In this document: positions 1 to 64,000 of the stretch, piece after piece
Numbering within the stretch: the first letter of the stretch is position 1
Layout: each line of letters begins with the position of its first letter
Virus record (IMG/VR): IMGVR_UViG_3300031992_000092
Location: 1 to 64,000 of that record
Reading direction: 5' to 3' (one strand)
DNA from: a virus
Length of the DNA stretch: 64,000 bases
The notes under the pieces: generated by a model
Told to the model about the DNA's origin: nothing
Seen by the model: the letters and a program-made list of their open reading frames with translations, nothing else
Databases searched by the model: none
Program-made: the position numbers and the translations under genes

Positions 1-76
1 CTCTGCAAGCACGAATATTTAGCAAAAACACGCCTGGGAAATTTTTTAATCGAATCCCTTAAAAAGGAGAAAAACA

Positions 77-244
77 ATGTCAAAAAATAATCAAGTTCAA
101 GATGATAATGAAAAACTTCGTAAAGATTTTAAGCGTTTTATTAATAGTAAAAAGTTTATTGATTTTATAGTTCAAAATGCTCCAGATATTTATGTTTCAA
201 CTATTATTTTTGAGGCTCTTGATAAAGCATTAAAGGAAATTTAA
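77..244 (+). CDS. small hypothetical protein (55 aa), basic; MSKNNQVQDDNEKLRKDFKRF...
   Basis: ATG at 77 preceded by AAAAAGGAG RBS; TAA at 242-244. Missing from the ORF track only because it is under 60 aa. Confidence 0.4.
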   Translation: MSKNNQVQDDNEKLRKDFKRFINSKKFIDFIVQNAPDIYVSTIIFEALDKALKEI

Positions 245-274
245 TTGACAACTTTTAATTTATAATGATATAAT
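245..274 (+). promoter_or_regulatory. sigma70-type promoter: -35 TTGACA (245-250), 18-bp spacer, extended -10 TGaTATAAT (266-274)
   Basis: Read directly from the sequence. It is a near-consensus promoter immediately upstream of the polymerase gene. Confidence 0.55.
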
Positions 275-303
275 ATTAATGTAAGATAAAATAGTGACGA
301 AAG

Positions 304-3300
304 GTGTCAATTTTGAATCAAAGGGTAAGCATTCATAATCACACTTATTTTAGTAATCTTCGCCTACTTGATGCTTTATCGTCACCAGAGGCGTTGATTG
401 ACAAAGCAATTGAATTAGGTCTTGCAGGAATCGGAATTAGTGACCATGAATCTTTATCAAGTCATGTTAGAGTAAATAAATATGCTCAAAAAATTAAAGA
501 AGATTATCCAGATTTTAAAGTAATTCTAGGTAATGAAATTTATTTAACTAAAACTAGAGATTCAGGACAAAAATATTATCACTTTCTTTTAGCTGCTAAA
601 GATGAAATTGGTCATAAAACTATGCGGGAATTATCAAGTATTGCTTGGTTAAATAGTTATTTTGATAGAGGGTTACAAAGAGTTCCTACACTTTATGATG
701 AATTAAAAGAAATTGTTTTAAAATATGGCAAAGGTCATCTTATTGCTAGTTCAGCATGTATAGGTTCAAATCTTGGACAAAATATCTTAAAAATGCGAGA
801 AGCAGATATTATTGGAGATATTACTTCTCGTAAAGAAGCACATGATGATATTGTTAATCATGTATTATTTTGTCAAGACTTATTTGGAGATGATTTTTAT
901 TTTGAAATTGCTCCAGCATTATATGAAGAACAAATTTATGTTAATCAAAAAACTTATGAATTAAGTAAAATATTTGGAACTAAAGTAACAGTTCAAGATG
1001 ATAGTCACAGAATAACTCAAGAAGATTATATTGCTCATAAAGCTCTTCTTAATAGTAAACAAGGAGAGCGAGAAGATATTGATAGTTTTTATCAATATAC
1101 TTATCTTCAAAGTTATGAAGATATTAGAAAACATTTAGCTCCAACCAATTTAGATTGTGATGAACTGTTTGCTAATAGTATGGAAATTTATAATAAAGTA
1201 GAAGAATATTCTTTACTTCATAATCAGAAAGTAGTTCAAGTAGCAGTACAAGATTTTCCTAAAAAAGAAAAAACTGAATTAGATAAAGAAAAATATTCTG
1301 TTTTAAATTCTTTATATAATAGTGATAATATTCAAGAAAGAAATTGGGTTAATCAATGTATTAATAAACTTAAAGAAAAAAATATTTTTAATGATTTATA
1401 TTTAACAGAATTAGAGTATGAAGCAGATATTCAAAAAGTTGTTGGAGAAAAATTAGGAACTTGTTTATTTGCTTATCCTCTTTTTCTTCAACACTATATT
1501 GATTTATTTTGGGAGTGCGGAAGTCCTGTTGGAGTCGCTAGAGGATCGGGCGCAGCTGGTCTTAACCACTATCTTCTTGGTATTACTCAGTTAGATCCCC
1601 TTAAAGAAGGTTTTAAATATTGGCGATTTCTTAATAAAGAGCGCCTAGAGCTACCAGATATAGATATAGATACGGCACCAGATCGAAAACAAGCGGTCTT
1701 TAGTAAAATAAGAGAAGAACGAGGTCCACTTGGTTTAGTTCAAATTTGTACATTTGGTACTCTAAGTAGTCGAGCATCTGTACAAAGTGCTTGTAGGGGT
1801 TATAGATCAGCTGAATATCCAAATGGAATTGATGTAGATGAAGCTCAATATTTAACTTCTCTTATTGGTAGTGAAAGAGGTTTTGTATGGAGTATCCATG
1901 ATACTGTTTATGGTAATCCAGATAAAAATAGAAAACCTGTTAAAAATTTTGTTAATGCTGTTAGTAAATATTCAGGTTTATTAGATATTATTCTTAAACT
2001 TGAAGGTTGTATATCTCATAGAGGTATTCATGCAAGTGGAGTTCTCTTTCTTGATAAAGGTCATGAGTATGATATTAATGCATTAATGATGGCTCCTGAT
2101 GGATCAATAACAACACAATATGACCTTCACGATGCAGAGTCAACTGGAAATGTTAAGTATGACTTCCTTTACACAGATGTTGAAAGCAAAATAGCTCAAT
2201 GTCTACAACTTTTACAAGAACATGGTAAAATTGAAAAAGATTTAACTTTACGTGAAGCTTATAATAAATATTTACACCCAGATGTTCTTCCAATGGAAGA
2301 AGATAAGCTTTGGGATGCAATTGATAAAGCAAATATTCCTAGTCTTTTTCAATTAACTTCTATGGTTGGTTCTCAAACAGTTAAAAAATTAAGACCTAGA
2401 AATATTAAAACATTAAATGATGTTAATGGTATTATGCGTCTTATGGCTGATGATAGTGGTGAGTCTCCAACAGATAGATATGCAAGACTTCAAAATAATC
2501 CTCAACAATGGGAAGATGAAATGAATTATTATAATCTTACCCAAGAGGAAAAGAATGTTATTAGAGAATATGTCAATAATGGAGTTTTAATTGATCAAGA
2601 GACTCTAATGAGAATTCTTATGGATGAAAGAGTTTGTTCATTTTCTCTTAAGGAATCTAATGCAGCTCGTAAAATCGTAGCTAAAAAACAAATGAATCAA
2701 ATTGAAAAACTACATCAACAAATTCTTAATAAGGCAACAAGTGAAGCGATGGGAAAATATCTATGGTTCCTCCTAGCTCCGTCCATGGGCTATAGTTTTT
2801 CATCCATTCATGGAACAAGTTACAGTTATATTGCCGTTCAATGTGCATATCTTGCCACATATTTTCCATCTATTTATTGGAATACTGCTTGTGTACGAGT
2901 AGATGCGGGATTAGGATTAGATGATACAACCGCATATGAAAAAATTGCTAGAGCATTAGGAAATATCAAAGAACAAGGTATTGGTATTTCAACAATTGAT
3001 ATTAATAAATCTGGGATGTCTTTTGAGCCAGATGAAAAAAACAATACAATTATTTATGGATTAAAAGCACTTAATGGAGTAGGTGGAGAAATTACTCAAC
3101 AAATTATTGATAATAGACCTTATACCTCTGTTGATAATTTTAAAGAAAAAGTTAAAGTAAATAAAACTGTAATGATATCTTTAATTAAATCTGGTGCTTT
3201 TGATGAATTTGGTCCAAGAGACAAGATAATGAAAGATTATTTATATATCACGTGCGGGCCAAAGAAAAGAATTACTCTTCAAAATTTTAAAGGTTTAATG

Positions 3301-4128
3301 GATAGGAACCTTATCCCGCAAGAATTTGAATTTCAAAAAAGATTATTTGTTTTTAATAAAGCATTAAAAGCAAATTGTAAAATTGGTGATATGTATGGTA
3401 TAAACTTTAATTATTATGATTTTTATGAAGAGTTTTTTGATACATCATTACTTGAACCTCTTGGTCAAGGTTTAGGAATTCCTCAAAAAACTTGGGATAA
3501 ACTTTATAAAAATGGAATGGATCCTGTAAGAGATTATTTTAAAGCAAATCAACAAGAAATTTTAGATTTATTTAATAATACTCTTTTACAAGAAGAATGG
3601 GATAAGTATGCTCAAGGAACTCTTTCTACATGGGAAATGGATTCTTTATCTTTTTATTCTCATGAACATGAATTAAGTCATATTGACAATTCTAGATATA
3701 ATATAGTAAACTATAATAGTCTTAAAAGAGAACCTGAAATTGAATATATGTTTAAAAGAAATGGACATGATATTCCTATTTATAAAACTTTTAGAATTGC
3801 TGGAACTGTAATTGCTAAAAATAGCACTAAATCAATTGTAACTATTTTAACAACAGATAATAATGTTGTAGATATTAAGTTTACAAGAGATTATTTTGCA
3901 AAATATAATAAAAGAATTAGTGAAATTGGTTTAGATGGGAAAAAACATATCATAGAAAAAGGATTCTTTGATAAAGGAACATTAGTAATTATTAATGGTT
4001 TTAGACGTGGAGATATGTTTGTTTCTAAAAAATATTCAAGAACAAAAAGTCATCAATTATATAAAATTATTAAAATTAATCAAGATGGAAGTCTTGAGAT
4101 AACAAATAATAGAGCAGGAGAAGAGTAA
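304..4128 (+). CDS. dnaE: DNA polymerase III alpha subunit (DnaE-type) with N-terminal PHP domain
   Basis: Continuous 1274-codon ORF. PHP motif HNHTYFS...GISDHESL is present. Polymerase core motif GSPVGVARGSGAAGLNHYLLGITQLDPL...LPDIDID matches the DnaE active-site region. Start may be GTG at 304 or TTG at 313, which lies 6 nt after AAAGGTG. Confidence 0.85.
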   Translation: MSILNQRVSIHNHTYFSNLRLLDALSSPEALIDKAIELGLAGIGISDHESLSSHVRVNKYAQKIKEDYPDFKVILGNEIYLTKTRDSGQKYYHFLLAAKDEIGHKTMRELSSIAWLNSYFDRGLQRVPTLYDELKEIVLKYGKGHLIASSACIGSNLGQNILKMREADIIGDITSRKEAHDDIVNHVLFCQDLFGDDFYFEIAPALYEEQIYVNQKTYELSKIFGTKVTVQDDSHRITQEDYIAHKALLNSKQGEREDIDSFYQYTYLQSYEDIRKHLAPTNLDCDELFANSMEIYNKVEEYSLLHNQKVVQVAVQDFPKKEKTELDKEKYSVLNSLYNSDNIQERNWVNQCINKLKEKNIFNDLYLTELEYEADIQKVVGEKLGTCLFAYPLFLQHYIDLFWECGSPVGVARGSGAAGLNHYLLGITQLDPLKEGFKYWRFLNKERLELPDIDIDTAPDRKQAVFSKIREERGPLGLVQICTFGTLSSRASVQSACRGYRSAEYPNGIDVDEAQYLTSLIGSERGFVWSIHDTVYGNPDKNRKPVKNFVNAVSKYSGLLDIILKLEGCISHRGIHASGVLFLDKGHEYDINALMMAPDGSITTQYDLHDAESTGNVKYDFLYTDVESKIAQCLQLLQEHGKIEKDLTLREAYNKYLHPDVLPMEEDKLWDAIDKANIPSLFQLTSMVGSQTVKKLRPRNIKTLNDVNGIMRLMADDSGESPTDRYARLQNNPQQWEDEMNYYNLTQEEKNVIREYVNNGVLIDQETLMRILMDERVCSFSLKESNAARKIVAKKQMNQIEKLHQQILNKATSEAMGKYLWFLLAPSMGYSFSSIHGTSYSYIAVQCAYLATYFPSIYWNTACVRVDAGLGLDDTTAYEKIARALGNIKEQGIGISTIDINKSGMSFEPDEKNNTIIYGLKALNGVGGEITQQIIDNRPYTSVDNFKEKVKVNKTVMISLIKSGAFDEFGPRDKIMKDYLYITCGPKKRITLQNFKGLMDRNLIPQEFEFQKRLFVFNKALKANCKIGDMYGINFNYYDFYEEFFDTSLLEPLGQGLGIPQKTWDKLYKNGMDPVRDYFKANQQEILDLFNNTLLQEEWDKYAQGTLSTWEMDSLSFYSHEHELSHIDNSRYNIVNYNSLKREPEIEYMFKRNGHDIPIYKTFRIAGTVIAKNSTKSIVTILTTDNNVVDIKFTRDYFAKYNKRISEIGLDGKKHIIEKGFFDKGTLVIINGFRRGDMFVSKKYSRTKSHQLYKIIKINQDGSLEITNNRAGEE

Positions 4129-4155
4129 AAATATTCTTCTCCTTTTGGAGATAAA

Positions 4156-4470
4156 ATGAATGAATATTGATTTGTACATGAGCCTAAACCTGAATGGGTG
4201 CGGGAATTGCAAGAACAAGGAATTTTAACTGGCCCTGAATATGCTGCTGTAACTATAGTATATACTTTTTATACAGGAGAACATAAAGATTATCTTTATG
4301 ATGGAGATGCTTTAATTAAAACTACAGAAGGTATTATTGCTCCAATTTCTTATCAGTGGATAGACAGAGCTAAAAGAAAAAATCCAGATATGAAATTATA
4401 TTCACCAGTTGAAGGACAAATGGAAGAAATTCTTGCATCTATTTATTCCAATTTGGGCAAAAATAAATAA
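4156..4470 (+). CDS. hypothetical protein (104 aa)
   Basis: ATG at 4156 after GGAGATAAA RBS. In frame with track ORF 4198..4470 if TGA at 4168 is read as Trp (MNEYWFVHEPKPEWVRELQ...). Confidence 0.45.
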
Positions 4471-4532
4471 ATTGTAAATTTTTAATTATATTATAAATAA
4501 GTGAGCACAAAATCTAGTATAGGGAGGAATAG

Positions 4533-4736
4533 ATGATTACACTTTATAGTACAGGTTGTCCTCGTTGTAAAGTTTTAGAGCAAAAACTTCAACAAAAAAA
4601 TATTGATTTTAATATAGAATCAGATATGCAAACTATTATTGATATGGGTTTTAGAGCAGCTCCTATTCTTAAAGTAGATGAAAACTTTTATGATTTTGGA
4701 GGAGCTATTAAGTGGGTAAATTCATATGAAGATTAA
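4533..4736 (+). CDS. nrdH: NrdH-like glutaredoxin-like redoxin (CPRC active site)
   Basis: 67 aa. MITLYSTGCPRCKVLEQ has a CxxC thioredoxin-fold motif. RBS GGGAGGAAT. Lies immediately upstream of nrdD and overlaps its start. Confidence 0.7.
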   Translation: MITLYSTGCPRCKVLEQKLQQKNIDFNIESDMQTIIDMGFRAAPILKVDENFYDFGGAIKWVNSYED

Positions 4737-6690
4737 TATGAAATTAAACCGCAATTTTACAACTCAATATAATAAATTGCAAGGTGAATTTGGAACAGAA
4801 ATTGCAGAATTAAATGGTTTTGGAGATGAGCAACTTTCTTATACGGATTTTATTTCTAATTTTATAGATAAACAAACAGTAGCAGATGCTTCTATTGATA
4901 GTAATTCAAATGTTAGTCATAAAGACATTGTAACTTTAGAAAGAGAAATGCCTAAACCTCATTCTAAGCTTTTAGCTTTTAATAAAATTTATTATGAAAT
5001 TCAAAAGAAATATGGGTTTAAAACAGCTAATGAGTGGTTGCGGGCAGAGTGGATAGGTCAGCTTTATATGCACGACGCTCCATCATCAACATTTAGACAC
5101 TATTGTTTTGCTTATGACTTAAAAGATTTAGCAGAAAGAGGGTTATACTTCTTTCCTGAAAGAAATGCTAAACCAGCAGAGCATTATACAACTTTTATTG
5201 ATTTTGTAAAAGAGTTTGTTAATTATACTTGTAATCGATCTTCAGGTGCAGTAGGGTTGCCAAATCTTCTTCCATATATGTTTTACTTCTGGAAAAAAGA
5301 TATAAATGACGATTATCTAGGCATACGAACTTCGGGCAATGAACGATACTATGCTGATCAGGGATTCCAACGATTTATTTACGCGGTAAACCAAAACATC
5401 ATGAGAGATGGTTCACAATCAGCTTTCACAAATACATCAATTTTTGATCGACCATATTTTGAAGCTCTTTTTGGTGGATCAACATTTCCTGATGGAACCT
5501 TTATGATTGATTATGAAGAAGAAATAATTGAATTTCAAAAATGGTATATGGAAGTTATGTCTGAAATTCGATCAACTAATATGTTAACATTCCCAGTAAA
5601 CACAATATCTCTTCTTCGTAAAGAAGGAAAATATGATTTAAACACTCTTGATGGTTTTGTTGATCAAAATTTTGCAGAGTGGGCTATTAAACATAATATG
5701 AAATGGTCAGATTCAAATATTTTTCAAGATACATCTGTTAATAGTTTATCAAATTGTTGTCGATTAAAAAGTGATATTGCTGAGCTTGGCTATTTTAATA
5801 GCGTCGGGGGATCAGCACTTAAAGTCGGATCTGTTAAAGTATCGACAATAAATCTTGCTCGTTTAGCATTAGATACAGATTCAGAAGAAGAATATTTACA
5901 AGAACTTGAATATAGATTAATTTTAAATCTTAAAGCTCTTGATTGTATTCGCCATATAATTCAAAGAAATGTTGACAAGGGTTTGCTTCCTAATTTTTCA
6001 TATGGCTTAGTTGATTTCCCGCATCTTTATAATACAATTGGCTTCCTTGGTGTTTATGAAACAATGAAAAAATTTGGATACACTAAAGTAGATACATTAG
6101 GTAATACTTATTATACTGATAAAGCTTCTTTGTTCGGTCAGAAAATTTTTGAAACTATTCGTGAAGTATCTAATCAATTTATTAAAGATAATAATTTAGA
6201 TTATAAGATTAATTGTGAACAAATTCCTGGTGAAAATGCAGCAGATAAATTGATGAAAAAAGATAAATTCTTTTATCCAAATGCTAATATTTATGATTTA
6301 CCATTATATGGTAATCAATTTATTCCTTTAGGAATTCAAACTACTGGACAAGAAAGAGTTAGAATTCAGGCGCAATTTGATGCTTTCTGTAATGGAGGAT
6401 CAATACTCCATTATAATATTGATGCACCTTTTACAAGTTACGAAAAAGCTTTATATATGACTAATTATATTGCTCAAAAAGGTGTTACATATTTTGCATT
6501 TAATACTCGAATTTCTACATGTAAAGATAATCATGCATTTTATGGCAACGGGCCTTGTCCAGTATGTGGTAAACCAAAAGACGCAGAATTTACTAGAATT
6601 GTCGGTTTCTACACAAAAATTAACAGTTGGAGCCAGACTCGCAAAGATGAATTTAAACTTCGTAAATGGGATAACATCAATGATAATTAA
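4726..6690 (+). CDS. nrdD: anaerobic ribonucleoside-triphosphate reductase (class III RNR, NrdD)
   Basis: 654 aa. C-terminal Zn-ribbon CPVCG and a glycyl-radical-like motif (TRIVGFY). Overall length and architecture are typical of NrdD. Confidence 0.85.
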   Translation: MKINMKLNRNFTTQYNKLQGEFGTEIAELNGFGDEQLSYTDFISNFIDKQTVADASIDSNSNVSHKDIVTLEREMPKPHSKLLAFNKIYYEIQKKYGFKTANEWLRAEWIGQLYMHDAPSSTFRHYCFAYDLKDLAERGLYFFPERNAKPAEHYTTFIDFVKEFVNYTCNRSSGAVGLPNLLPYMFYFWKKDINDDYLGIRTSGNERYYADQGFQRFIYAVNQNIMRDGSQSAFTNTSIFDRPYFEALFGGSTFPDGTFMIDYEEEIIEFQKWYMEVMSEIRSTNMLTFPVNTISLLRKEGKYDLNTLDGFVDQNFAEWAIKHNMKWSDSNIFQDTSVNSLSNCCRLKSDIAELGYFNSVGGSALKVGSVKVSTINLARLALDTDSEEEYLQELEYRLILNLKALDCIRHIIQRNVDKGLLPNFSYGLVDFPHLYNTIGFLGVYETMKKFGYTKVDTLGNTYYTDKASLFGQKIFETIREVSNQFIKDNNLDYKINCEQIPGENAADKLMKKDKFFYPNANIYDLPLYGNQFIPLGIQTTGQERVRIQAQFDAFCNGGSILHYNIDAPFTSYEKALYMTNYIAQKGVTYFAFNTRISTCKDNHAFYGNGPCPVCGKPKDAEFTRIVGFYTKINSWSQTRKDEFKLRKWDNINDN

Positions 6691-7144: not shown

Positions 7145-7152
7145 GAATAAAT

Positions 7153-7898: not shown

Positions 7899-7900
7899 AT

Positions 7901-56847: not shown

Positions 56848-56925
56848 TTTTCCTCCTAAGTAAAATTATTTACAATTATATTATACCCAATTTTTTAGCA
56901 TTGTAAACAAAATTTTACAAAAAAT

Positions 56926-58542
56926 TTACAAAACTTTTTGCATTAATTGAGATATTTCCCGCATTGTAATTTCTACTCTAATCTTAGTATTATACATTAA
57001 ATCTAAACTTCTTCTCCAAAGTAAATCTGAACGATCTTGAGCATCATCTAAAATTCCATCTCCCTCAGTATCTACTTGCCATAGTTGTTGATTTAAGTTT
57101 GAGTAGGTTGAACGAACTAATCCTAAATTTTTACCATTACTATTTGCAACTTCTGATAAACCAACAGATGAAGAAGAATTTAAAAAATGTTCTATAAAAT
57201 TAGACATGGTTCAAAAATTACCATTAATAACCATATAAAAACTTTGGTCATCAGTATCTTCAAAACCAGCTAAAGCATTTAATAAACTTCTATATCCAAT
57301 ACTTTTAATTAAAAATTGTCATTTATTATCTGCTTCACTATAATCATTATTTCTACTTATTCCAGAAGCTATTTGTAGTATAGCTCACATATCTTCACCA
57401 GTATAACCTGCTTCTCTTCCCAAGAGTGTAGACATAGGAGTTCCATCTTGAATTTTAATGGTATAAGATTTTAAATTATCAGTTAATTGCTTTTCATAGT
57501 TCTTAGCATTTGCGCCTAACGCTATTCTTAAAACTCCACCTTCATCAGTAATATCAATAGAAAAGTCTTTCTTAGCTTTCTTTTTATAATAAGCTTGTTT
57601 CTGTTTTACTTCTTTTAATATTTCTTTTAATTCACTATCAGGATTAAAATTAACTCCATAATAATTATTTCCAGTATGACTATAAGAAACTTGCTGTTCT
57701 ATAAAATGTTCAATTTGTTCGTTAGCTTCTAATGCTTTTAAATGTGAGCGGACAATGCCAACACCTTCACTAACTTCTCTCAAAGTTTTATCAGCTTCTC
57801 GTAATCAGGCAATACATTTTTTACGAACTTCATCTAATAAGAAAATATCTTTCTCAAAATGACCACTATTTGTAGAACCTGTTTTACCATGTCGAACAAT
57901 CATGCCACTTTTTATCTCTTCCTGACAAAGCGGTATCAACTGCGCCGCAAGTACTACTTTTCCCATTGCAGTATTATATTGTTCATTAGCATTATCAGGA
58001 ATTTTAAAAGCATCGTTACTATATTTACCCATTAATGCAGCAATAACTTTACCTGCGGAAGAATATCCAGCTAAACTATCTTGTCCTAATATAGAACCTT
58101 CTGTTACTTTTAACATAGTATTTTCTACATATGCATCTAACATATGTTGAGTTTCATCAGATAATGATTGTAAATAATTATTAATAGTATCTACAAAATC
58201 ATCAATAGTGTCAAATGTTAATAAATCTTTTTTTAATCTGGTAATAATTTCTCTCGGATCCTTATCCGCACTTATTTCTGTTTCATCATTATTTTCGAAA
58301 TCTTTATTAGAAATTGTAGAAATTCCTTGTAAAATTTCTCCACTGAGAAATTGAGAAACAGCTTCTTCATCTATATTATTTTGTTTAGCTATTCTTTTAA
58401 TTTTTTCTTGTCTTTTGGCTAAATTTAACAAATGTCTTTCTAAAATTTCTGTTTTTGTTTCATATCAAATTTGATTTGCTCAAGCTTCTTCGGGAATATG
58501 TTCTTGTCAGAAATGTAAATATCTAAAACTATAATTTTCCAT
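56926..58542 (-). CDS. hypothetical structural/assembly protein (~538 aa)
   Basis: ATG (rc 58540-42) after GGAGTATAAA. Track pieces 57805..58431, 57385..57783 and 56926..57207 are in one frame, joined by TGA. Confidence 0.45.
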
Positions 58543-58612: not shown

Positions 58613-59788
58613 TTATGACTTTGTAACTGTAACAGTATAAGTCTTAGTAGCGGTTCCCTTTGTAACCTTAACTGTAACTGTATTCTCTCCAGTAGCCCAA
58701 GTAGCAGCATTACCATTAGTAATAACTGTTGTACCATTTTTAATTTCAATGGTAGCAGTATTATCTGTAGCAATAGCACTAATTGTACCATTGGCTGTAG
58801 TTGTTGTACCAGTGTAAGTTAATGTTTCAGCATCGAATGTTGGGCTAAGAGTAACTCCACTAATTGTTAATGCAGAAAGAGTAGCATCATCTTCATCAAC
58901 TGGAGTTTCTGTAGCTTCGATGTTTTCGTCACCAATAATCTGGAAAACGACAACACGCTTTTTGGTTTTATCAAACTTTGTATAGTCAGGGAATGCATCC
59001 ATAACGAATGAGAATGTTGATGGATCACCAGTATTAGCCATATTGAAAGTAAATGAAGATTGAATCTTAACATTAGGGAAGATAATCTCAACTGGCATAT
59101 CCTCACCAGAGTATTCTTCACGGAATAATCCAGAAGCTTCTACATAGTAGTTTCCAGCAAAGTTATCAGCATCAATAGTAATCTGTTTAACGCCAGCAGT
59201 TTTAACTACATATGTATCAACACGAAGAGTGTGTCCAACATATCCAGCAGCACCATCAAAGGTAATTTCAATTCCATCAGAACCTACTGTATGTTCACCA
59301 TCAGCAATAGAAGTTGTTGCAACAGGAACAACACCAGCACCAGCGTTATCTAGAACCATACCAAAAATAGGAGCAGTTCCAGAATTAACATAAAGAACAA
59401 CATCTTCTCCACCAGCTGTATCAGCATCAACTTTAACTTTTCCACCTGCTAAAATAGGAAGATCGAAAGTTGTGTGAACATACATTTTCTGGTCACCAGT
59501 ACCAGCATCAATAAGTCCAGCACCAGTTAGAACAGCAATACCCATAGGAGAAAGAAGAGCATCTTCTACGTTAAATGTAACAGTACGTTCGCCTTCCCAA
59601 GCAATAAGACGAGGATTACCACGACCACCACGAGCATAAACTAACTCAGATGTTCCCTCGACGCTTGAAGTCTTAGCTGTATCAATATAAAGTACAGGTT
59701 GACCTTTTGCGAAAGTAGTGTTACCAATTTGAGTCTGGGTACGAGCTTTGAATACAACGTCACAAATTTCACGAATACCAAAACGCAT
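58613..59788 (-). CDS. major tail protein with C-terminal Ig-like (Big_2-type) domain
   Basis: Continuous ORF without TGA and with higher GC than its neighbours. C-terminal ...ATLSALTISGVTLSPTFDAETLTYTG... is a bacterial Ig-like domain signature common on major tail proteins. Probable ATG at 59788 after AGGTGA; the track starts at GTG 59800. Followed by a strong terminator. Confidence 0.55.
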   Translation of the reverse strand: MRFGIREICDVVFKARTQTQIGNTTFAKGQPVLYIDTAKTSSVEGTSELVYARGGRGNPRLIAWEGERTVTFNVEDALLSPMGIAVLTGAGLIDAGTGDQKMYVHTTFDLPILAGGKVKVDADTAGGEDVVLYVNSGTAPIFGMVLDNAGAGVVPVATTSIADGEHTVGSDGIEITFDGAAGYVGHTLRVDTYVVKTAGVKQITIDADNFAGNYYVEASGLFREEYSGEDMPVEIIFPNVKIQSSFTFNMANTGDPSTFSFVMDAFPDYTKFDKTKKRVVVFQIIGDENIEATETPVDEDDATLSALTISGVTLSPTFDAETLTYTGTTTTANGTISAIATDNTATIEIKNGTTVITNGNAATWATGENTVTVKVTKGTATKTYTVTVTKS

Positions 59789-59907: not shown

Positions 59908-60666
59908 CTAATTATATAAATTTCTTTGTCAATTGTCGGGTTCATCCATATTTTCAGTGGATGCAAATGGTTGTAAAGCAATTTTTTGATATAAATCACA
60001 TTCTTGTTTTGAAATATATCTTGTAAAAGCATCGTAGAGTTGAAAAGGAGTATAATTATAAAATATATTTACATCCATTTGTAACCCAATAGACAAAATA
60101 GAAGTATAAAAACTAAATAATGATTGAAAATTGTCTGAAGATTTTTTATTAGTTCTTTGTCTGGCTGCTTCTAATTTTTTAGCAATTTTTTCCGCTAATT
60201 CGTTTGCAGGATTAAATTTATTTTCTCTACTATCTGGCGGATCAAACAATTCTTTAACAACAGTAGAAAAATTTTCAAAGTTATACATTTGAATCATACC
60301 TATAACAGTATTATTTTCATCCTCTTGTAAACTAAAATTTATACTATTTTGAGTATAAAATACATTATAAATAGGGAAACATAATTCAAAAAACTTATCA
60401 AAAGAATTTTTAATTAATCCTTCATCAGTTTTTATTACCTCTAATAAAATTTGAAAATTACTAAATTCATTTAATTCAGAATTGCCCTCTTTTACTGAGG
60501 AAAAAAAATCTTCTGGACTCCCAATCATTTTTATAGCTGTAAAAAATTCATTTTCTCCAAATTGAACTATATCTTTAATTGTAGGCTGAATAATAAATAT
60601 TCCACAAGTAGGAATTTTTACTTGACTTCCTGAAAGATAAAGTCCACTATCTCCTTGTAACCTCAT
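59908..60666 (-). CDS. hypothetical tail/neck protein (252 aa)
   Basis: ATG after GGTAGTGA. Track ORF 59929..60675 continues through TGA to TAG at 59908. Confidence 0.45.
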
Positions 60667-60678
60667 ATTAATCACTAC

Positions 60679-61290
60679 CTATTGAACATGTTCGCGAACA
60701 TCTTCATTAGTAATTATTTCATTTTTATCTTCATCATTTTCATGTGTTGCAGAATATTGAAGAACAATTCCTCCTCAATCTTCATTCATTATTAAACGCT
60801 GAGCGCCAACAAAACGAAGTTTTCCAATACCAGTTAAACGAGTATTGTTTAAAATTCCATCAAGATATCCCGCAATAGCAATTGGACGAGTTTTATAATT
60901 ATCCAATTCTCAACAATCAGTATTACAAAAAATAGAAAAATTTATAGTCACATTTCTAAATTCAGGATTAGAAGTTGGGAAAAAATCTGTAAATTCAATG
61001 ATTATATAAGATTTAACCTCTCCAAAGTCTTTAATTTTTAATTTTGGAGTTAAAGAAATATAACCCTCTTCTTTTAACTTTCCTAAACTATACTTATCTA
61101 TAATTTGTAAATATTGACCTTGACTTTCATCAAGACAATCAGGAGTGTTAATAATTAAAAGTCTTTTTAAATAATTACTATAAGGTTTGTTTTCTACAAA
61201 TAATTTTCTTAATATTAATTCTTGGTCTTTTTCACAAGAAAGGAAGCTAGAATGAAAATCTGTCATTATTTGTTGTGATACTCTTTTCAT
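60679..61290 (-). CDS. hypothetical neck/tail protein (203 aa)
   Basis: ATG after AGGGAGG. Track ORF 60910..61290 continues through TGA to TAG at 60679. Confidence 0.45.
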
Positions 61291-61302
61291 TTTAAACCTC
61301 CC

Positions 61303-62427
61303 TTATAAAGATTTAATATTAATTGTTTTAACATACTGTTCATTATCTGTAATTAATCCAAGAGTGAAAGAAGATTTCTTTCTAGATATAATTTCAATAG
61401 TACATTGTGTGCGGGAAGATTTGACAATTTTAGCCATTCTCTCATCAGGAATTGTAAATTCTCCCTCAACTAATGACGTATAAGTAACAATATCATAAGG
61501 ATATACTTCATCAGGTCCTTGAATGTATTGTACTGGATCTGCAATTGTAATTTCTTTTTCATATACAGTATCATTTATAATATATTTAATTTTAAAACTA
61601 CCAATTGCACTTTCTAATATATTAATAGAACAAATTTGAGCATTTTGATAAGTATCTATTAATATGGCTTTTGAATCATTATCCGCAAGTACCCATTGAC
61701 CAGATTCATCATAATAATTTGAATTAATCATATAACTAATATTTGAATCTTGTTTAACTATATCTTGTCCAATAATTATATCATTTTCATCTTCTATTGG
61801 GACAGAAGGTAAATTTTTATATTCATTGGTATAATCTTCTTTAATTACTAATTCAATAACTCCTGGAGTTGAAATAGAATCAATAGTTTGAACTTCTCAA
61901 GGTAGTCCCGCAATATTAATTTTAGTAAATCTGTGAAAATAATCTAATGTATTTTCATCCTTCTTAATATAGATTCTTCCAGATAAATTCATTTCATTTA
62001 AATTAATACTGCGTTTTTGAAACCATCTAATATCAGTTTCAGTTGGACCTTGAAAATAGATTCAATAATTTTTATTATTAATATCAAGTTGATAACGACA
62101 TCTTATAATTTGAGCTTTTAAATATGCTGTTTCTACTAAATCTGGAAGAAGAATCATTCAATAAGTTTGATCATCTAAACATTGAAATACATCTCCAGGT
62201 TCAAGCTCACTACTAAAATCAACTGAAATTATTTTTTTGTCATAGTCCATTTTAATATTATCAGTATTTATTAAACAACGAACTATTCTTTTTAATGGAG
62301 TTTTAATTCATCTACTATTATAGTCTGAAGCTAATGCTAAATGAAAACTCCATAGTTTAGTTTGTTTTATCCGACCATTAGAATTTCCACCCCAATATTT
62401 TATTCTATTTTTTAAAGAATTAGACAT
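61303..62427 (-). CDS. hypothetical structural protein (374 aa)
   Basis: ATG at 62427 overlapping the upstream stop. Continues through several TGAs into track ORF 61303..61731. Confidence 0.45.
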
Positions 62428-62728
62428 TTTGTTTAATCCTATCTAAAAGGCTACAGCATTCAAATATTGTTCTTCTATAAAGAGTAAAATCAATATCTTG
62501 AGATACTTGTAAACCTTCTAGTTTAGAAGCACAAGTTAATAAATCTCTTTGGTCGGAAAAAAGACTACTTAACCCTAGCAATTCTACTACCAAGGTTTCT
62601 AAAGGCTTATGCCAATCTTTTTCTTCTTCCCGCATAGGAAGAAGTTTAAAAACTTGAGATAAAATTCTACTAAGATTTTCTTGTACTGTAACTGTATCTA
62701 TATCAATATTATATTTTGTCATAGTCAT
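62420..62728 (-). CDS. hypothetical protein (102 aa)
   Basis: Intact ORF. Start overlaps the upstream stop (TAATG). Confidence 0.5.
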   Translation of the reverse strand: MTMTKYNIDIDTVTVQENLSRILSQVFKLLPMREEEKDWHKPLETLVVELLGLSSLFSDQRDLLTCASKLEGLQVSQDIDFTLYRRTIFECCSLLDRIKQNV

Positions 62729-63204
62729 TAGTCTTTCTCCTTCATGATTAAATCGAAGGTAGACTCATAACTACCATCCGTTCTTTTTCTTCTACGTCTA
62801 TAAAGTCGTTGAAGATGAAAACCTCTTGTTTTATATTGTTCTTGAAGCTTTAAAAGTTTGTCAATATGACTTGCTTGACTTGTAAACTTAAAATCGCTAC
62901 CACTATATTTTTGTCGAATATTTTCAACACTAGCTAACTGATAACCAATTCATTCAACAATCATATATTGACGTAATATCATTTTTTCTTCTAAATCCAA
63001 TAAACAAGAAAACCGAGCATTTTCTAAATCTACATTAAATATGTCTTTTTTAGGAAATTCAAAGTGCGGAATGGCTGCTAAAAGAATTTCTTGAAGAAGC
63101 TCTTCTGTATCCTCTTTTGTTAATTCCATAAACATATCATCAGTAATTCCCGCAAGGAAGAAATCATACATCTCAGAGAAAGAAGTTACCTCTTCATCAG
63201 CCAT
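62728..63204 (-). CDS. hypothetical protein (158 aa), acidic N-terminus; possible head-tail connector/adaptor
   Basis: Track ORF 62950..63204 continues through TGA to TAA at 62728. Position just after the head gene and the helical acidic N-terminus fit a gp6-like adaptor, but there is no motif proof. Confidence 0.4.
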
Positions 63205-63213
63205 TTTTCCTCC

Positions 63214-63777
63214 TTAAACTTTTACTCTACGTCCCGTAGATTCTTCTTGTTTATTTTGTTGAACTCTACGGCCATGCTTTTCCTCTTCTTTTGGAGCGTC
63301 GGCCGCAATAGCTCTTTTATTTTTTATCATATTTAAAACATTTAATCCAGTAGCTTTACTAATAGCTTCCATACGATTAATGTCAGAAATTTCAAGTTCA
63401 ACTGCTCGATTGACTAATCTATTTTTAATTGCTTTTGGAGCAAAATCAAGAGCATCTAATAATGTATCCATGCTCGCAGTAGTTAATGCGGCATCAATAT
63501 CTTCATCAGTTCAATTATATTCTATAGTATCATCCCGCACACCAAATTCACGAGCAAGAGCTTTATTATCTACTCTAAGGTAATTTTGAAGTAAAATTTT
63601 TCCTCCACGATCATAAGATAATTCTCTTAATTCACCAGCTTTAATTTTAAAAGTAGCTTTTGGAGGAAATTCTCTTTCAATTCCTGTTGGTGTTTTATAA
63701 GAAACTACAGAATCCGAAAGACTAGTTACTGCAACAACCTCATCATCAGGAATAGCAGTCATATCTACAATTGTCAT
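63214..63777 (-). CDS. hypothetical protein (187 aa)
   Basis: ATG after AAGGAG RBS. Track ORFs 63511..63777 and 63214..63471 are in frame, joined by one TGA. Confidence 0.5.
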
Positions 63778-63800
63778 TTTATCTCCTTATATCTCCAAAA

Positions 63801-63838
63801 AGTAGGGGAGGGGAGTTTCACTCAACCCTCCCCTACTT
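63801..63838 (-). terminator. terminator: 12-bp stem AGTAGGGGAGGG / CCCTCCCCTACT plus T-run
   Basis: Perfect GC-rich inverted repeat followed on the minus transcript by UUUUGG. Sits directly after the partial upstream gene. Confidence 0.6.
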
Positions 63839-63851
63839 CTATAAATTAAAA

Positions 63852-64000
63852 TTAAACAGTCTTGGTAAGACTGGTATTTACATACTGAGTAATTGCAGGA
63901 TTAGAGAATACTGCGATACCAAACTTTTTATAGGTCTGCATATCGGTTGACCAATCATCATTATCTGTGATTGTACGAACCATTGTTGGACCTTCAAAAG
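63852..64000 (-). CDS. 3' end of a gene that begins beyond the window (possibly the major head protein)
   Basis: Open frame ...GPTMVRTITDNDDWSTDMQTYKKFGIAVFSNPAITQYVNTSLTKTV* ending at TAA 63852-63854. A strong terminator immediately downstream is typical after major capsid genes. Its identity is an inference. Confidence 0.35.
   Translation of the reverse strand, partial: FEGPTMVRTITDNDDWSTDMQTYKKFGIAVFSNPAITQYVNTSLTKTV

What the first reader, a model, noticed from the sequence alone, without database searches (positions are those of the whole stretch)
1..64000. UGA-to-Trp genetic code: standard-code ORF calls fragment almost every late gene
Functional proteins are recovered only when TGA is read as Trp: the RuvC catalytic motif TTGWAIFD, the dUTPase N-terminus, and the GH25 endolysin DISHWDG. 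Track ORF pieces over tens of kb are strictly in frame, separated only by TGA. This indicates a mollicute host (Mycoplasma, Spiroplasma, Mesoplasma) or a recoded phage. A tailed phage of at least 64 kb with DnaE, class III RNR and a roughly 3,000-aa tape measure in a table-4 background is unusual compared with the small known mycoplasma phages.
Basis: partly seen in the sequence, partly recalled or inferred. Interest (0 to 1): 0.6.

Follow-up and report, generated by a model that had tools for sequence, protein, structure and literature searches.

The report
Phage that rereads TGA as tryptophan
This 64-kb stretch belongs to a roughly 148-kb tailed phage that writes its late (virion and lysis) genes with the stop codon TGA meaning tryptophan but keeps its early replication genes readable in the standard code, a known phage trick for hosts with a normal code and a cell wall, not a sign of a mycoplasma host.

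Summary
Reading TGA as sense turns 113 ORF fragments in 11-64 kb into 24 long ORFs covering 99% of the DNA. No gene ends in TGA.

TGA means Trp. In a standard-code endolysin homologue, 12 of 17 TGA positions are TGG. Close relatives mostly swap TGA with TGG.

The mollicute interpretation is not supported, for four reasons:
- The early block (DnaE, NrdD/G and others) has 5 TGA against 36 TGG, while the late block has 187 against 56, at the same GC3 of about 0.1.
- The lysis cassette targets peptidoglycan: a GH25+CHAP+PG-binding endolysin and an SPP1-type holin.
- The closest characterised phages infect walled Bacillota.
- A 98-99% identical contig carries a 25-tRNA array that includes a tRNA(UCA).

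This is the pattern Borges et al. described for TGA-recoded "Agate"-type gut phages. It is a new member of a known kind.

One side finding lies outside the window. This phage's tRNA(UCA), and about 40 others in IMG/VR, carry an extra hairpin in the variable region. Its 7-nt loop copies the tRNA-Trp anticodon loop (U-CCA-A), and its stem covaries. I propose, untested, that it supplies TrpRS identity. I found no description of it in the papers searched.

The parts
1..10980 (+). Early block for replication and nucleotide metabolism. It is readable in the standard code: 14 genes, 5 in-frame TGA against 36 TGG, and every stop is TAA or TAG.
304..4128 (+). DnaE-type DNA polymerase III alpha subunit (PHP, DNA_pol3_alpha, finger and HHH domains). 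0 TGA, 12 TGG.
   Evidence: PF07733, 1.2e-39
4533..4736 (+). Small glutaredoxin/thioredoxin-like protein upstream of nrdD. The match is weak.
   Evidence: below Pfam cut-offs; phrog_22, 7.9e-06
4726..6690 (+). NrdD, anaerobic (class III) ribonucleotide reductase. 0 TGA, 8 TGG.
   Evidence: PF13597, 1e-84
6470..7144 (+). NrdG-like radical-SAM activase. The start codon is uncertain; public gene calls give 154-165 aa.
   Evidence: Fer4_12, 1.3e-06
7901..8161 (+). 86-aa early protein of unknown function. It has a weak sub-threshold hit to a release-factor-like family and no homologues outside its own cluster.
   Evidence: baeRF_family5, E 0.0035, 17.9 bits against a cut-off of 27
8384..8854 (+). 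dUTPase with one in-frame TGA at 8498. The start codon is uncertain.
   Evidence: PF00692, 5e-13
8854..9333 (+). RuvC-like Holliday junction resolvase with three in-frame TGA (8893, 9109, 9157) and no TGG. It is the one clearly recoded gene in the + block.
   Evidence: PF02075, 3.8e-11
9335..10270 (+). SPFH/Band 7 domain protein. 0 TGA.
   Evidence: PF01145, 6.6e-28
10998..11025 (.). Bidirectional intrinsic-terminator-like hairpin (10-11 bp, T runs on both sides), lying between the convergent early and late blocks.
   Evidence: 2 found against 0.2 expected
11032..12591 (-). Endolysin with GH25 muramidase, CHAP and peptidoglycan-binding domains. 17 TGA, 7 TGG.
12651..12941 (-). SPP1-type holin. 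2 TGA, 1 TGG.
   Evidence: PF04688, 1.5e-24
12968..13768 (-). 266-aa Ala/Val/Thr-rich structural-type protein with no TGA (2 TGG). Its GC content is higher (0.41).
   Evidence: (phrog_38190)
14496..26270 (-). Giant 3,924-aa protein with repeated DUF285 / LRR_5 domains, probably a host-recognition or adhesin protein. 62 TGA, 11 TGG.
26283..33507 (-). Two large tail or baseplate proteins of 1,186 and 1,217 aa, with 15 and 14 TGA.
33507..35546 (-). 679-aa fibre-like repeat protein with a recurring LGGV/I motif. It contains no Trp codon of either kind.
   Evidence: Phage_head_fibr, faint
35559..47054 (-). Five tail or baseplate genes (747, 552, 70, 542 and 1,817 aa), together holding 41 TGA and 15 TGG.
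47179..56094 (-). Tape measure protein of 2,971 aa (up to 3,013 if it starts at an upstream non-ATG codon). 17 TGA, 3 TGG.
   Evidence: PF10145, 1.9e-30
56371..58542 (-). Two genes between the tube and the tape measure (538 aa with 7 TGA; 158 aa with none), in the position where tail assembly chaperones usually sit.
58613..59788 (-). Tail tube protein of the YomU/SPbeta type with a C-terminal Ig-like extension. 0 TGA, 2 TGG.
   Evidence: PF27173; phrog_2729, 7.3e-53
59908..63777 (-). Six head-tail connector or virion genes. Five contain TGA: 9 TGA and 5 TGG in total.
63852..63998 (-). 3' end (48 codons plus stop) of the major capsid protein gene. The rest lies beyond the window.
   Evidence: identical to the C-terminus of the 348-aa ORF in L148

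Best explanation
The window is part of a roughly 148-kb tailed phage (long tape measure, SPbeta/YomU-type tail tube; sipho-type morphology is inferred). The phage uses two coding regimes.

Genes needed first contain essentially no TGA, either as a sense codon or as a stop. These are DNA polymerase, gyrase, helicase, primase, ligase and the anaerobic RNR. The host's ordinary translation system can read them.

Virion, lysis and a few other genes use TGA for about 77% of their tryptophans. These include the tail, baseplate, tape measure, portal, terminase, holin, endolysin, RuvC and ThyX. Under the standard code they would be truncated.

The phage carries a tRNA array that includes a tRNA with anticodon UCA. 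Once that tRNA is made and charged with tryptophan, UGA is read through and the late proteins are completed. Recoding therefore acts as a translational lock that delays assembly and lysis.

The host is most likely an anaerobic member of the Bacillota with a peptidoglycan wall and the standard code, living in an animal gut.

Shown here:
- TGA is a sense codon.
- It stands for Trp.
- Early and late genes differ sharply in TGA use.
- The tRNA(UCA) is present in a 98-99% identical genome.
- The lysis genes target peptidoglycan.

Inferred, not shown:
- the order in which the genes are expressed;
- charging of the tRNA by the host TrpRS;
- competition with host RF2;
- the identity and genetic code of the host.
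For: TGA is a sense codon:
- Coding density is 0.88 under table 11 and 0.99 with TGA as sense in 11-64 kb. Making TAG sense instead gives no such gain.
- Under table 11 each late gene breaks into 2-63 pieces.
- Pfam domains are recovered only in the TGA=W translations.
- 0 of 37 genes end in TGA; 29 end in TAA and 8 in TAG.

TGA stands for Trp:
- In the endolysin, the homologue L004 is written in the standard code (0 TGA, 22 TGG). It has TGG at 12 of the 17 TGA positions and Y, Y, F, C, T at the others.
- Across 120 homologues, most TGA columns are W.
- Between 94-99% identical relatives, codon changes at TGA are almost always TGA<->TGG: 3+3 in L002, 3+3 in L147, 1+5 against 3 other changes in L148.
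- Trp makes up 1.42% of late-block residues if TGA = Trp, but only 0.33% if only TGG counts. The early block has 1.13%.

Early and late genes differ:
- 5 TGA against 36 TGG in the early block, 187 against 56 in the late block (Fisher 1.8e-15; binomial 2e-18).
- The 10 kb immediately upstream of DnaE in the 99% identical contig (topoisomerase/gyrase subunit fragment, ligase, helicase, primase, exonuclease; L005) has 1 in-frame TGA. The next 10 kb (L014, with GyrB and GyrA) has 8, all in ThyX (5) and a 122-aa gene (3). All stops are TAA or TAG.

Suppressor tRNA:
- A tRNA with anticodon UCA, A1-U72 and G73 sits in a 25-tRNA array of IMGVR_UViG_3300028591_004246.
- That contig is 98-99% identical in protein sequence to the window.

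Host:
- Endolysin with GH25 + CHAP + PG-binding domains, and an SPP1 holin.
- NrdD/NrdG point to anaerobic growth.
- The tail tube is of the YomU type, and its nearest characterised phage relatives infect Enterococcus, Clostridium, Brevibacillus, Lactococcus and Bacillus.
- Endolysin relatives occur in ruminant-gut MAGs.

Genome size:
- Tiling the contigs gives about 147 kb.
- A 148,461-bp contig carries an identical early protein.

Literature:
- Borges et al. describe the same pattern for TGA-recoded Agate phages.
- Seki et al. showed experimentally that phage TrpRS:tRNA(UCA) pairs insert Trp at UGA.
Against: - The window itself holds no tRNA. The tRNA(UCA) comes from a near-identical relative, not from this exact sequence.
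- No host was identified directly: there is no CRISPR spacer match and no prophage junction.
- No TrpRS, RF1 or RF2 homologue was found in the roughly 118 kb of this phage type that I could read. About 29 kb remains unseen, so how RF2 is overcome is unknown.
- The base after sense TGA codons shows no bias away from strong termination contexts (p = 0.22). That test gave no sign of competition with RF2.
- The split is not strictly early versus late. ThyX (5 TGA), dUTPase (1) and a 122-aa gene (3) lie in the nucleotide-metabolism region. Several abundant virion proteins have no TGA.
- The giant protein carries DUF285, a domain first named in Mycoplasma. I take this as weak evidence, because from my own knowledge, not checked here, the domain is common in Bacillota.
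Confidence: 0.85

Rival explanations
1. The phage infects a wall-less mollicute (Mycoplasma, Spiroplasma, Mesoplasma) and simply shares its host's native code 4.
For: - TGA = Trp.
- Very low GC of 29%.
- DUF285 repeats in the giant protein.
Against: - Early genes avoid TGA despite GC3 of about 0.1: 5 TGA against 36 TGG, versus 187 against 56 in late genes. In a native code-4 setting, mutation pressure should push all genes towards TGA.
- The endolysin has GH25, CHAP and peptidoglycan-binding domains and sits beside an SPP1 holin. These have no substrate in a wall-less cell.
- The nearest characterised phages infect walled Bacillota.
- 20 of 37 genes (54%) carry in-frame TGA. That lies within the 26-71% Borges et al. 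report for phages of standard-code hosts, and below the roughly 90% they report for phages that share their host's code.
- The phage carries its own tRNA(UCA).
Confidence: 0.04
2. The host is an undescribed walled bacterium that itself uses code 4. The TGA-free early genes would then reflect recent gene exchange with standard-code phages, not timing control.
For: - One relative (L143) was binned into a MAG labelled 'uncultured Bacillales bacterium'.
- Code-4 lineages exist outside the mollicutes, in insect endosymbionts (my own knowledge).
Against: - L143 is itself a TGA-recoded phage-like contig: coverage is 0.61 under table 11 and 0.90 with TGA as sense. Its binning therefore says little about the host's code.
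- TGA avoidance covers nearly all of a contiguous replication region of about 30 kb. That region has the same GC3 as the rest of the genome, which does not look like recent import.
- The known walled hosts of related recoded phages use the standard code.
Confidence: 0.07
3. TGA encodes glycine (code 25, as in Absconditabacteria/Gracilibacteria phages), selenocysteine, or serine inserted through the long-variable-arm tRNA(UCA).
For: - ARAGORN labels the tRNA(UCA) as tRNA-SeC.
- Its long variable arm is a feature of the serine, leucine and selenocysteine tRNAs.
Against: - TGA positions align with Trp or aromatic residues, not with Gly, Ser or Cys. In the standard-code homologue 12 of 17 are TGG, and several alignment columns are 100% W.
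- There are 187 TGA codons in the late genes.
- The tRNA has a normal 7/5 acceptor/T-stem geometry, A1-U72 and G73, and a Trp-type anticodon loop.
Confidence: 0.02
4. The in-frame TGAs are assembly or sequencing errors, or the genes are decaying pseudogenes.
For: None beyond the bare fact that the ORFs are interrupted under table 11.
Against: - Only TGA interrupts the frames, never TAA or TAG, over ORFs up to 11.8 kb long.
- The same TGA codons are conserved in independent assemblies from JGI, ENA and Logan samples.
Confidence: 0.01

Closest known systems
TGA-recoded 'Agate' clade phages of animal and human guts (Borges et al., bioRxiv 10.1101/2021.08.26.457843; published 2022)
   Same: - TGA is read as Trp.
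- In-frame TGA accumulates in structural and lysis genes while the DNA replication genes stay in the standard code.
- TGA is not used as a stop, GC content is low, and a suppressor tRNA is present.
This phage is about 148 kb.
- Homing-endonuclease genes are recoded. In the relative L148, an HNH ORF with 3 TGA sits between terminase pieces.
   Different: - Membership could not be tested. The clade is defined by a terminase tree, and its reference genomes are not in the collections available here.
- In this genome the late genes seen in the window form one long minus-strand block, with further fibre genes near the tRNA array.
- The endolysin is among the most heavily recoded genes here (17 TGA). 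Borges et al. highlight a transmembrane lysis protein and a tail protein instead.
phAss-1 / proposed Phassvirus (OQ749652; PMC10607447), a 136-kb human-gut phage of NCBI's 'Caudoviricetes code 15 clade'
   Same: - Its tail tube is homologous: 48.5% identity over the aligned parts.
- It is a large genome with a big tRNA set (36 tRNAs, 3 of them suppressors).
- 28% of its ORFs are recoded, mainly virion genes.
- No phage aminoacyl-tRNA synthetase was found.
- Its predicted host is in the Bacillota (Clostridia).
   Different: It recodes TAG to Gln, not TGA to Trp. There is no detectable nucleotide similarity.
Jade-phage 'code change module': TrpRS + tRNA(UCA) + RF1 (Borges et al.; validated as the AP1 and HF2 pairs by Seki et al., PMC12636597)
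   Same: A phage-encoded tRNA(UCA) makes UGA read as Trp. Trp insertion was shown by mass spectrometry.
   Different: - No TrpRS or release factor was found in the roughly 118 kb of this phage type that I examined.
- The tRNA here has an extra hairpin in the variable region.
- A short-arm tRNA(UCA) directly beside a TrpRS gene was seen in a different IMG/VR contig (L035).
Large Bacillota phages with a YomU-type tail tube: the PF27173 family, named after Bacillus SPbeta YomU, and tblastn relatives Enterococcus phage EF1, Lactococcus phage 949 and Brevibacillus phage Sundance
   Same: - Their tail tubes are homologous: 31-36% identity for EF1, 949 and Sundance, and a PF27173 YomU_Tube match for the window protein.
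- The tblastn relatives have genomes of 115-142 kb.
   Different: - These phages are annotated in the standard code.
- Whether they share the very long tape measure or the DnaE-type polymerase was not checked here.
- No close sequence relationship exists. The window gave no megablast match in INPHARED.
Known mollicute phages (for example Mycoplasma phages P1 and MAV1, and the Spiroplasma phages)
   Same: They use TGA = Trp.
   Different: - Those phages are small, share the code of a wall-less host throughout their genomes, and need no peptidoglycan hydrolase (my own knowledge; not tested here).
- The present phage fails the expectations for that group; see the membership test.

Membership tests
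Stop-codon-recoded phage, TGA->Trp, on a standard-code host (Borges et al. 2022; Ivanova et al. 2014) | Many genes carry in-frame TGA, and reading it as sense restores full-length, homologous proteins. | tested here: met
   - 20 of 37 genes carry in-frame TGA.
- 113 fragments become 24 ORFs, and coverage rises from 0.88 to 0.99.
- Pfam domains are recovered.
Stop-codon-recoded phage, TGA->Trp, on a standard-code host (Borges et al. 2022; Ivanova et al. 2014) | TGA aligns with tryptophan in homologues. | tested here: met
   - 12 of 17 endolysin TGA positions are TGG in the standard-code homologue L004.
- W predominates across 120 homologues.
- TGA<->TGG is the dominant exchange between close relatives.
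Stop-codon-recoded phage, TGA->Trp, on a standard-code host (Borges et al. 2022; Ivanova et al. 2014) | Recoding is concentrated in structural and lysis genes, and the replication genes are readable in the standard code. | tested here: met
   - 187 TGA against 56 TGG in late genes, 5 against 36 in early genes.
- The replication genes in the 10 kb upstream of DnaE have 1 in-frame TGA; the next 10 kb holds two recoded genes.
- Exceptions are RuvC, ThyX, dUTPase and two small genes.
Stop-codon-recoded phage, TGA->Trp, on a standard-code host (Borges et al. 2022; Ivanova et al. 2014) | The phage encodes a suppressor tRNA with anticodon UCA. | tested here: met
   - There is none in the window.
- It is present in the 98-99% identical contig IMGVR_UViG_3300028591_004246, and in a 97% relative.
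Stop-codon-recoded phage, TGA->Trp, on a standard-code host (Borges et al. 2022; Ivanova et al. 2014) | The host uses the standard code. | tested here: inconclusive
   - This is inferred from the peptidoglycan-directed lysis genes, the TGA-free early genes and the hosts of related phages.
- No host genome was linked to the phage.
Stop-codon-recoded phage, TGA->Trp, on a standard-code host (Borges et al. 2022; Ivanova et al. 2014) | TGA is lost as a stop codon. | tested here: met
   0 of 37 genes end in TGA; 29 end in TAA and 8 in TAG.
Agate clade sensu Borges et al. | Placement within the clade on the large-terminase phylogeny. | not testable with these tools
   - The reference Agate genomes are not in the searchable collections.
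- The terminase lies outside the window. In the relative L148 it is split by homing-endonuclease ORFs.
Agate clade sensu Borges et al. | Genome of about 127-180 kb, from an animal or human gut, with a Firmicutes host. | tested here: inconclusive
   - The size of about 148 kb fits.
- Habitat and host are only inferred, from ruminant-gut MAG relatives and from the lysis genes.
Phage of a mollicute host with native code 4 | TGA is used for Trp throughout the genome, including the early genes. | tested here: not met
   - DnaE has 0 TGA against 12 TGG, and NrdD 0 against 8.
- The early block as a whole has 5 against 36.
Phage of a mollicute host with native code 4 | The lysis functions suit a cell without peptidoglycan. 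| tested here: not met
   The phage has a GH25 muramidase + CHAP + PG_binding endolysin and an SPP1-type holin.
Code 25 phages (TGA->Gly) of Absconditabacteria/Gracilibacteria | TGA aligns with glycine. | tested here: not met
   The TGA columns are W or aromatic. Gly is never the commonest residue; it is a single sequence in two columns.
Bona fide tRNA-Sec (selC), for the tRNA(UCA) of the relative | 8/5 or 9/4 acceptor/T geometry with a 6-bp D stem. | tested here: not met
   - The tRNA has a 7-bp acceptor stem, a 4-bp D stem and a 5-bp T stem, and it scores 56 bits on the general tRNA model.
- The selC-like tRNAs recovered in the same scan look different.

The most novel reading that the evidence does not exclude
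The opal-suppressor tRNA of this phage type belongs to a widespread structural class that I could not find described.

What it looks like:
- It is a tRNA-Trp-like molecule with anticodon UCA, G73 and usually A1 or G1.
- Its 21-29-nt variable region forms a second stem-loop that resembles an anticodon arm.
- The 7-nt loop of that arm reads N-U-C-C-A-A-N, the tRNA-Trp anticodon loop.

Evidence:
- I took 41 distinct sequences from IMG/VR, selected for carrying the motif.
- In these, U-CCA-A is invariant, while the five stem pairs are 83-100% canonical with 4-6 different pair types each.
- In slid-register controls only 5-71% of pairs are canonical.

Proposal: the extra arm presents the CCA identity element that bacterial TrpRS requires, in cis, so that a standard-code host's own TrpRS charges a tRNA whose real anticodon is UCA. 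This would answer an open question raised by Borges et al.: how recoded phages without their own synthetase get their suppressor tRNAs charged. It might also help explain why they detected suppressor tRNAs in only 35% of TGA-recoded genomes.

The functional claim is untested. B. subtilis TrpRS is reported to work with a plain UCA variant, so the arm may not be strictly required. It may instead serve modification enzymes, stability or another partner.
Probability: 0.3. Interest if true: 0.8.

Novelty: new member of a known kind. Interest (0 to 1): 0.45.

Why it matters
For annotation, table 11 shreds about 50 kb of this window into meaningless fragments, and a blanket 'code 4 = mycoplasma' reading would assign the wrong host. 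The block structure shows that a mixed-code or code-4 gene call is needed, together with a host inference based on the lysis genes.

Biologically, the window is a clean example of recoding used as a translational lock on assembly and lysis. The holin has 2 TGA and the endolysin 17. The most abundant virion proteins (tail tube here; capsid in close relatives) stay free of TGA.

The larger potential value is the accessory CCA hairpin on the suppressor tRNA. If it recruits the host TrpRS, it explains how a phage can switch a cell's genetic code with one small RNA. It would also give a natural design principle for opal-suppressor tRNAs in genetic code expansion.

Tried and rejected
- **tRNA and Rfam scans of the window.** Nothing was found, so the suppressor had to be sought in relatives.
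- **Megablast of 25 kb against INPHARED.** No match.
- **Exact-protein look-ups.** The first attempts failed for DnaE, and for the tail tube with the wrong start. They worked with the correct ORFs.
- **Translating recoded ORFs with the built-in table 11.** The tools refuse this. All recoded proteins were translated with table 4 in scripts and pasted in.
- **TAG as the recoded codon.** No gain in coding density.
- **Base after sense TGA codons.** I looked for avoidance of strong RF2 contexts and found no bias (chi-square p = 0.22). The test does not discriminate between hosts.
- **Search for TrpRS and RF1.** tblastn with B. subtilis sequences recalled from memory found nothing in the window or the tiled relatives. 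The queries are valid: they hit a TrpRS beside a short-arm tRNA(UCA) in L035 and an RF-like gene in L048. About 29 kb of the roughly 148-kb genome was not reached.
- **Host search in GTDB genomes with the endolysin.** Hits were only distant (35-46% identity). One of them is itself a recoded phage contig binned into a 'Bacillales' MAG. No host was assigned.
- **Literature search for the sample accessions.** Nothing found.
- **Literature searches for a suppressor tRNA with an anticodon-like variable arm.** Nothing found. The library is incomplete, so this does not prove novelty.
- **The 86-aa early protein with a weak release-factor-like Pfam hit.** It has no homologues outside its own cluster and no PHROG hit, so I dropped it.
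- **g36 (63771-63998, +).** Rejected as a spurious ORF. The minus strand there encodes the capsid C-terminus.

Full report

The window has 29% GC. Its GC skew changes sign near 11-12 kb.

Counting stop codons by frame already shows the anomaly. With TGA as a stop, the longest open frame is 1,276 codons. With TGA as sense, open frames of 3,928 and 3,013 codons appear on the minus strand.

I built greedy non-overlapping ORF sets under three readings:

| Reading | ORFs | Mean length | Coverage |
|---|---|---|---|
| Table 11 | 127 | 149 aa | 88.1% |
| TGA as sense | 36 | 581 aa | 97.6% |
| TAG as sense (control) | 128 | 152 aa | 90.3% |

The effect is confined to 11-64 kb, where 113 ORFs become 24 and coverage rises from 0.88 to 0.99. 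The first 11 kb is indifferent to the code (14 versus 12 ORFs; 0.928 versus 0.929).

Under table 11 the endolysin falls into 18 pieces, the giant ORF at 14496-26270 into 63, and the tape measure into 18. Only TGA ever interrupts these frames. In the six frames of the window, TAA+TAG take 3.7-7.1% of codons, so an 11.8-kb frame free of them cannot arise by chance.

- RuvC with LVTTGWAIFD, where the W is TGA at 8893;
- a dUTPase with one TGA;
- a GH25 endolysin beginning MKELVLDISHWDG;
- DnaE, NrdD and NrdG;
- a 2,971-aa tape measure.

**2. Which amino acid does TGA encode?**

The endolysin has 17 TGA and 7 TGG and many full-length homologues. In an alignment of 120 of them, most TGA columns are dominated by W, several at 97-100%.

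Some of those homologues may themselves have been translated with table 4. I therefore fetched DNA for three of them:
- L004 comes from an NCBI MAG and is written in the standard code (0 in-frame TGA, 22 TGG, stop TAG). It has TGG at 12 of the 17 positions and Y, Y, F, C, T at the rest.
- L002 (98% identical) and L003 (65% identical) are recoded, and they exchange TGA and TGG in both directions.

Across all orthologous ORFs of 94-99% identical relatives, changes at TGA codons are almost always TGA<->TGG.

If TGA = Trp, the late genes contain 1.42% Trp, a normal value. If only TGG counts, they contain 0.33%.

Glycine (code 25), serine and selenocysteine are excluded by the alignments.

**3. Native code-4 host, or a recoded phage on a standard-code host?**

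Four independent lines favour the recoded phage.

*(a) Codon use by gene class.* The plus-strand block 1-10980 has 5 TGA and 36 TGG. It encodes DnaE, a glutaredoxin-like protein, NrdD, NrdG, dUTPase, RuvC, an SPFH protein and small unknown proteins. The minus-strand block has 187 TGA and 56 TGG (Fisher p = 1.8e-15). A binomial test of the early block against the late-block ratio gives p = 2e-18. Both blocks have GC3 near 0.1. Mutation pressure would therefore drive Trp codons to TGA wherever TGA is tolerated, so keeping TGG in early genes implies selection against TGA there.

I walked into a 98-99% identical contig, IMGVR_UViG_3300028591_004246 (93,199 bp). The 10 kb immediately upstream of DnaE (a topoisomerase/gyrase subunit fragment, ligase, helicase, primase, exonuclease and others) has a single in-frame TGA. 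The next 10 kb, which holds GyrB and GyrA, is also largely TGA-free but contains two recoded genes, ThyX (5 TGA) and a 122-aa gene (3). Every stop in both stretches is TAA or TAG. No gene in the window stops at TGA.

*(b) Lysis genes.* The endolysin combines a GH25 muramidase, a CHAP peptidase and peptidoglycan-binding repeats. It sits next to an SPP1-type holin. These act on a peptidoglycan wall, which mollicutes lack.

*(c) Relatives.* The tail tube is of the YomU/SPbeta type. Its nearest characterised homologues are in large phages of Enterococcus, Clostridium, Brevibacillus, Lactococcus and Bacillus, and in phAss-1, a TAG-recoded gut phage with a predicted Clostridia host. Endolysin relatives in species-representative genomes come from ruminant-gut MAGs. 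NrdD/NrdG point to an anaerobe.

*(d) The phage brings its own decoder.* The window has no tRNA. The near-identical contig has an array of 25 tRNAs, including a tRNA with anticodon UCA and an ordinary tRNA-Trp(CCA).

20 of 37 genes (54%) carry in-frame TGA. That lies inside the 26-71% range reported for recoded phages of standard-code hosts, and below the roughly 90% reported for phages that share their host's code.

**4. Genome context.**

Tiling the window with three IMG/VR contigs closes a circular map of about 147 kb. An ENA contig of 148,461 bp carries an identical early protein and the same gene order. The window is therefore about 43% of a phage of about 148 kb.

No host genes or integrase were seen in the roughly 118 kb examined.

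Beyond the right end of the window lie, in the relatives:
- the capsid gene (its last 48 codons are at 63852-63998), with 0 TGA;
- a head-decoration-like gene;
- a scaffold or protease gene;
- the portal gene, with 3 TGA;
- a terminase broken up by HNH and LAGLIDADG-type ORFs.

Further recoded fibre genes lie next to the tRNA array.

A bidirectional terminator-like hairpin at 10998-11025 separates the convergent early and late blocks.

**5. How it most likely works.**

1. The host's ribosomes translate the TGA-free early genes.
2. The tRNA array is transcribed, and tRNA(UCA) is charged with Trp.
3. UGA is then read as Trp, in competition with RF2.
4. The virion and lysis proteins, which would otherwise be truncated, are completed.

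RuvC, needed to resolve branched DNA before packaging, is recoded in the same way even though it sits in the plus-strand block.

The most abundant virion proteins, and a few others, contain no TGA. These are the tail tube here, the capsid in close relatives, g15, g20 (no Trp at all) and g27. For three of them, six of six Trp codons being TGG has probability 1.5e-4 under the late-block ratio. I read this as selection for efficient translation of very highly expressed genes. That is an inference.

The timing, the role of the host TrpRS and the way RF2 is outcompeted are all inferred. I found no TrpRS or release-factor gene, and about 29 kb is unseen. The base following sense TGA shows no context bias.

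**6. Comparison with what is known.**

This is the architecture Borges et al. describe for TGA-recoded phages, in particular their Agate clade:
- TGA stop codons are lost beforehand in low-GC genomes;
- suppressor tRNAs are present;
- the hosts are Firmicutes.

Phage tRNA(UCA)/TrpRS pairs have been shown experimentally to insert Trp at UGA.

I could not test clade membership, because the reference genomes and the terminase tree are not available here. I therefore file the window as a new member of a known kind, not as a named Agate phage.

**7. Side finding outside the window: an unusual suppressor tRNA.**

The tRNA(UCA) of the relative is 96 nt long. It has:
- a normal 7-bp acceptor stem with A1-U72 and G73;
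- a Trp-type anticodon loop, CUUCAAA;
- a normal T arm;
- a 26-nt variable region that folds into a 5-bp stem with the loop GUCCAAA.

A phage with only 56% DnaE identity has the same loop on a completely different 7-bp stem.

An IMG/VR scan for Trp-type UCA anticodon arms returned 118 stretches. Among 79 distinct long-arm sequences there were two kinds:
- selC-like tRNAs;
- about 40-45 Trp-like tRNAs whose extra hairpin has the loop CUCCAAA, GUCCAAA, GUCCAUA or UUCCAAC.

In 41 sequences selected for the motif, U-CCA-A is invariant. The five stem pairs are 83-100% canonical with 4-6 pair types each, against 5-71% canonical in slid registers, and there are 36 distinct stems. Short-arm versions were about three times rarer.

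21 of 38 dual-arm loci show a gain of at least 0.10 in coding density under TGA-as-sense, even within the few kilobases fetched.

The only TrpRS gene found next to any of these tRNAs sits beside a short-arm one.

Bacterial TrpRS uses the CCA anticodon and G73 as its major identity elements (citing Himeno et al. 1991). I therefore propose that the extra arm supplies the CCA signal that the UCA anticodon has lost. This is a hypothesis only. Three points count against it or limit it:
- B. subtilis TrpRS reportedly accepts a plain UCA variant.
- The geometry is untested.
- My literature searches cover only an open-access subset.

**8. Verdict.**

- TGA = Trp is confirmed.
- The mollicute host is rejected.
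- The window is a recoded phage of a walled, standard-code, probably anaerobic Bacillota host (confidence 0.85).
- The phenomenon itself is known, so interest in the window as such is moderate. The accessory-arm suppressor tRNA is the part that deserves follow-up.

Noticed in passing
L019 68-163 (= L022 5558-5653, L149 15557-15652), contig IMGVR_UViG_3300028591_004246; also L006 23262-23358 (-) and about 40 other IMG/VR loci (L024-L139): The tRNA(UCA) has a tRNA-Trp-like body plus an extra stem-loop in the variable region. The 7-nt loop of that arm copies the tRNA-Trp anticodon loop (N-U-CCA-A-N), and its stems covary freely. ARAGORN labels these tRNAs tRNA-SeC. The arm may be a TrpRS identity mimic.
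   Followed up: partly
L019 3481-4128 (contig IMGVR_UViG_3300028591_004246): A ROOL RNA (RF03087, 298 bits, E 1.5e-68) sits inside the phage tRNA array. A weak YrlA-like (Y RNA) hit lies just downstream at 4148-4251 (32.6 bits, below the gathering score).
   Followed up: no
L149 3-908 (contig IMGVR_UViG_3300028591_004246, about 22.3-23.2 kb): By eye, this ORF looks like a TROVE/Ro60-type protein with a vWA-like C-terminus. It lies in the same genome as the YrlA-like RNA hit. No family search was run on it.
   Followed up: no
window 7901-8161 (+): An 86-aa early protein with no Trp has a weak, sub-threshold Pfam hit to baeRF_family5, a release-factor-like family (E 0.0035). It has no homologues outside its own 100%-identity cluster. 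This could be chance; a factor acting on termination would be relevant to recoding.
   Followed up: partly
window 33507-35546 (-): A 679-aa fibre-like protein contains no tryptophan codon at all, neither TGA nor TGG. It is built from about a dozen repeats of an ...LGG(V/I)...D... motif.
   Followed up: no
window 12968-13768, 56371-56847, 58613-59788 (-); L148 8877-9923: Several late genes use only TGG for Trp: g15, g27, the tail tube and, in relatives, the major capsid protein. g15 and the tube also have higher GC (0.39-0.41 against about 0.27). This suggests either selection for efficient translation or recent acquisition.
   Followed up: partly
L148 1021-4599 (contig IMGVR_UViG_3300032038_006501): The large terminase appears in at least two pieces (1021-2124 and 3089-3748). 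An HNH/NUMOD-type endonuclease ORF with 3 TGA separates them, and a LAGLIDADG-like ORF follows, which suggests intron or intein insertions.
   Followed up: no
L014 583-1191 and 3813-4181 (contig IMGVR_UViG_3300028591_004246): ThyX (5 TGA, 1 TGG) and a 122-aa gene (3 TGA) are recoded even though they lie among TGA-free nucleotide-metabolism and gyrase genes. The early/late split is therefore not purely positional.
   Followed up: no
L003 (ENA ERZ14209543 NODE_102, 147,424 bp), 151-5855 and 16457-18593: A more distant recoded relative (endolysin 65% identical, 15 TGA) has its tRNA array directly upstream of the endolysin. It also carries T4 Rnl1-type RNA ligase and kinase/HD genes, that is, tRNA-repair functions. 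No UCA tRNA lies in the part fetched.
   Followed up: no
L143 (GTDB genome contig CAMPBT010000008.1, 'uncultured Bacillales bacterium' MAG): A contig binned into a bacterial MAG is itself a TGA-recoded phage-like sequence. Coverage is 0.61 under table 11 and 0.90 with TGA as sense, and its endolysin has 14 TGA. MAG taxonomy here should not be read as a host assignment.
   Followed up: partly
window 10998-11025: A perfect bidirectional terminator-like hairpin with T runs on both strands lies exactly between the convergent early (+) and late (-) blocks.
   Followed up: yes
L035 4430-5524 (IMGVR_UViG_3300021399_000106, 166,546 bp): A short-arm tRNA(UCA) lies immediately next to a TrpRS gene (48% identical to the recalled B. 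subtilis TrpRS over 326 aa). This resembles the 'code change module' described for Jade phages.
   Followed up: no
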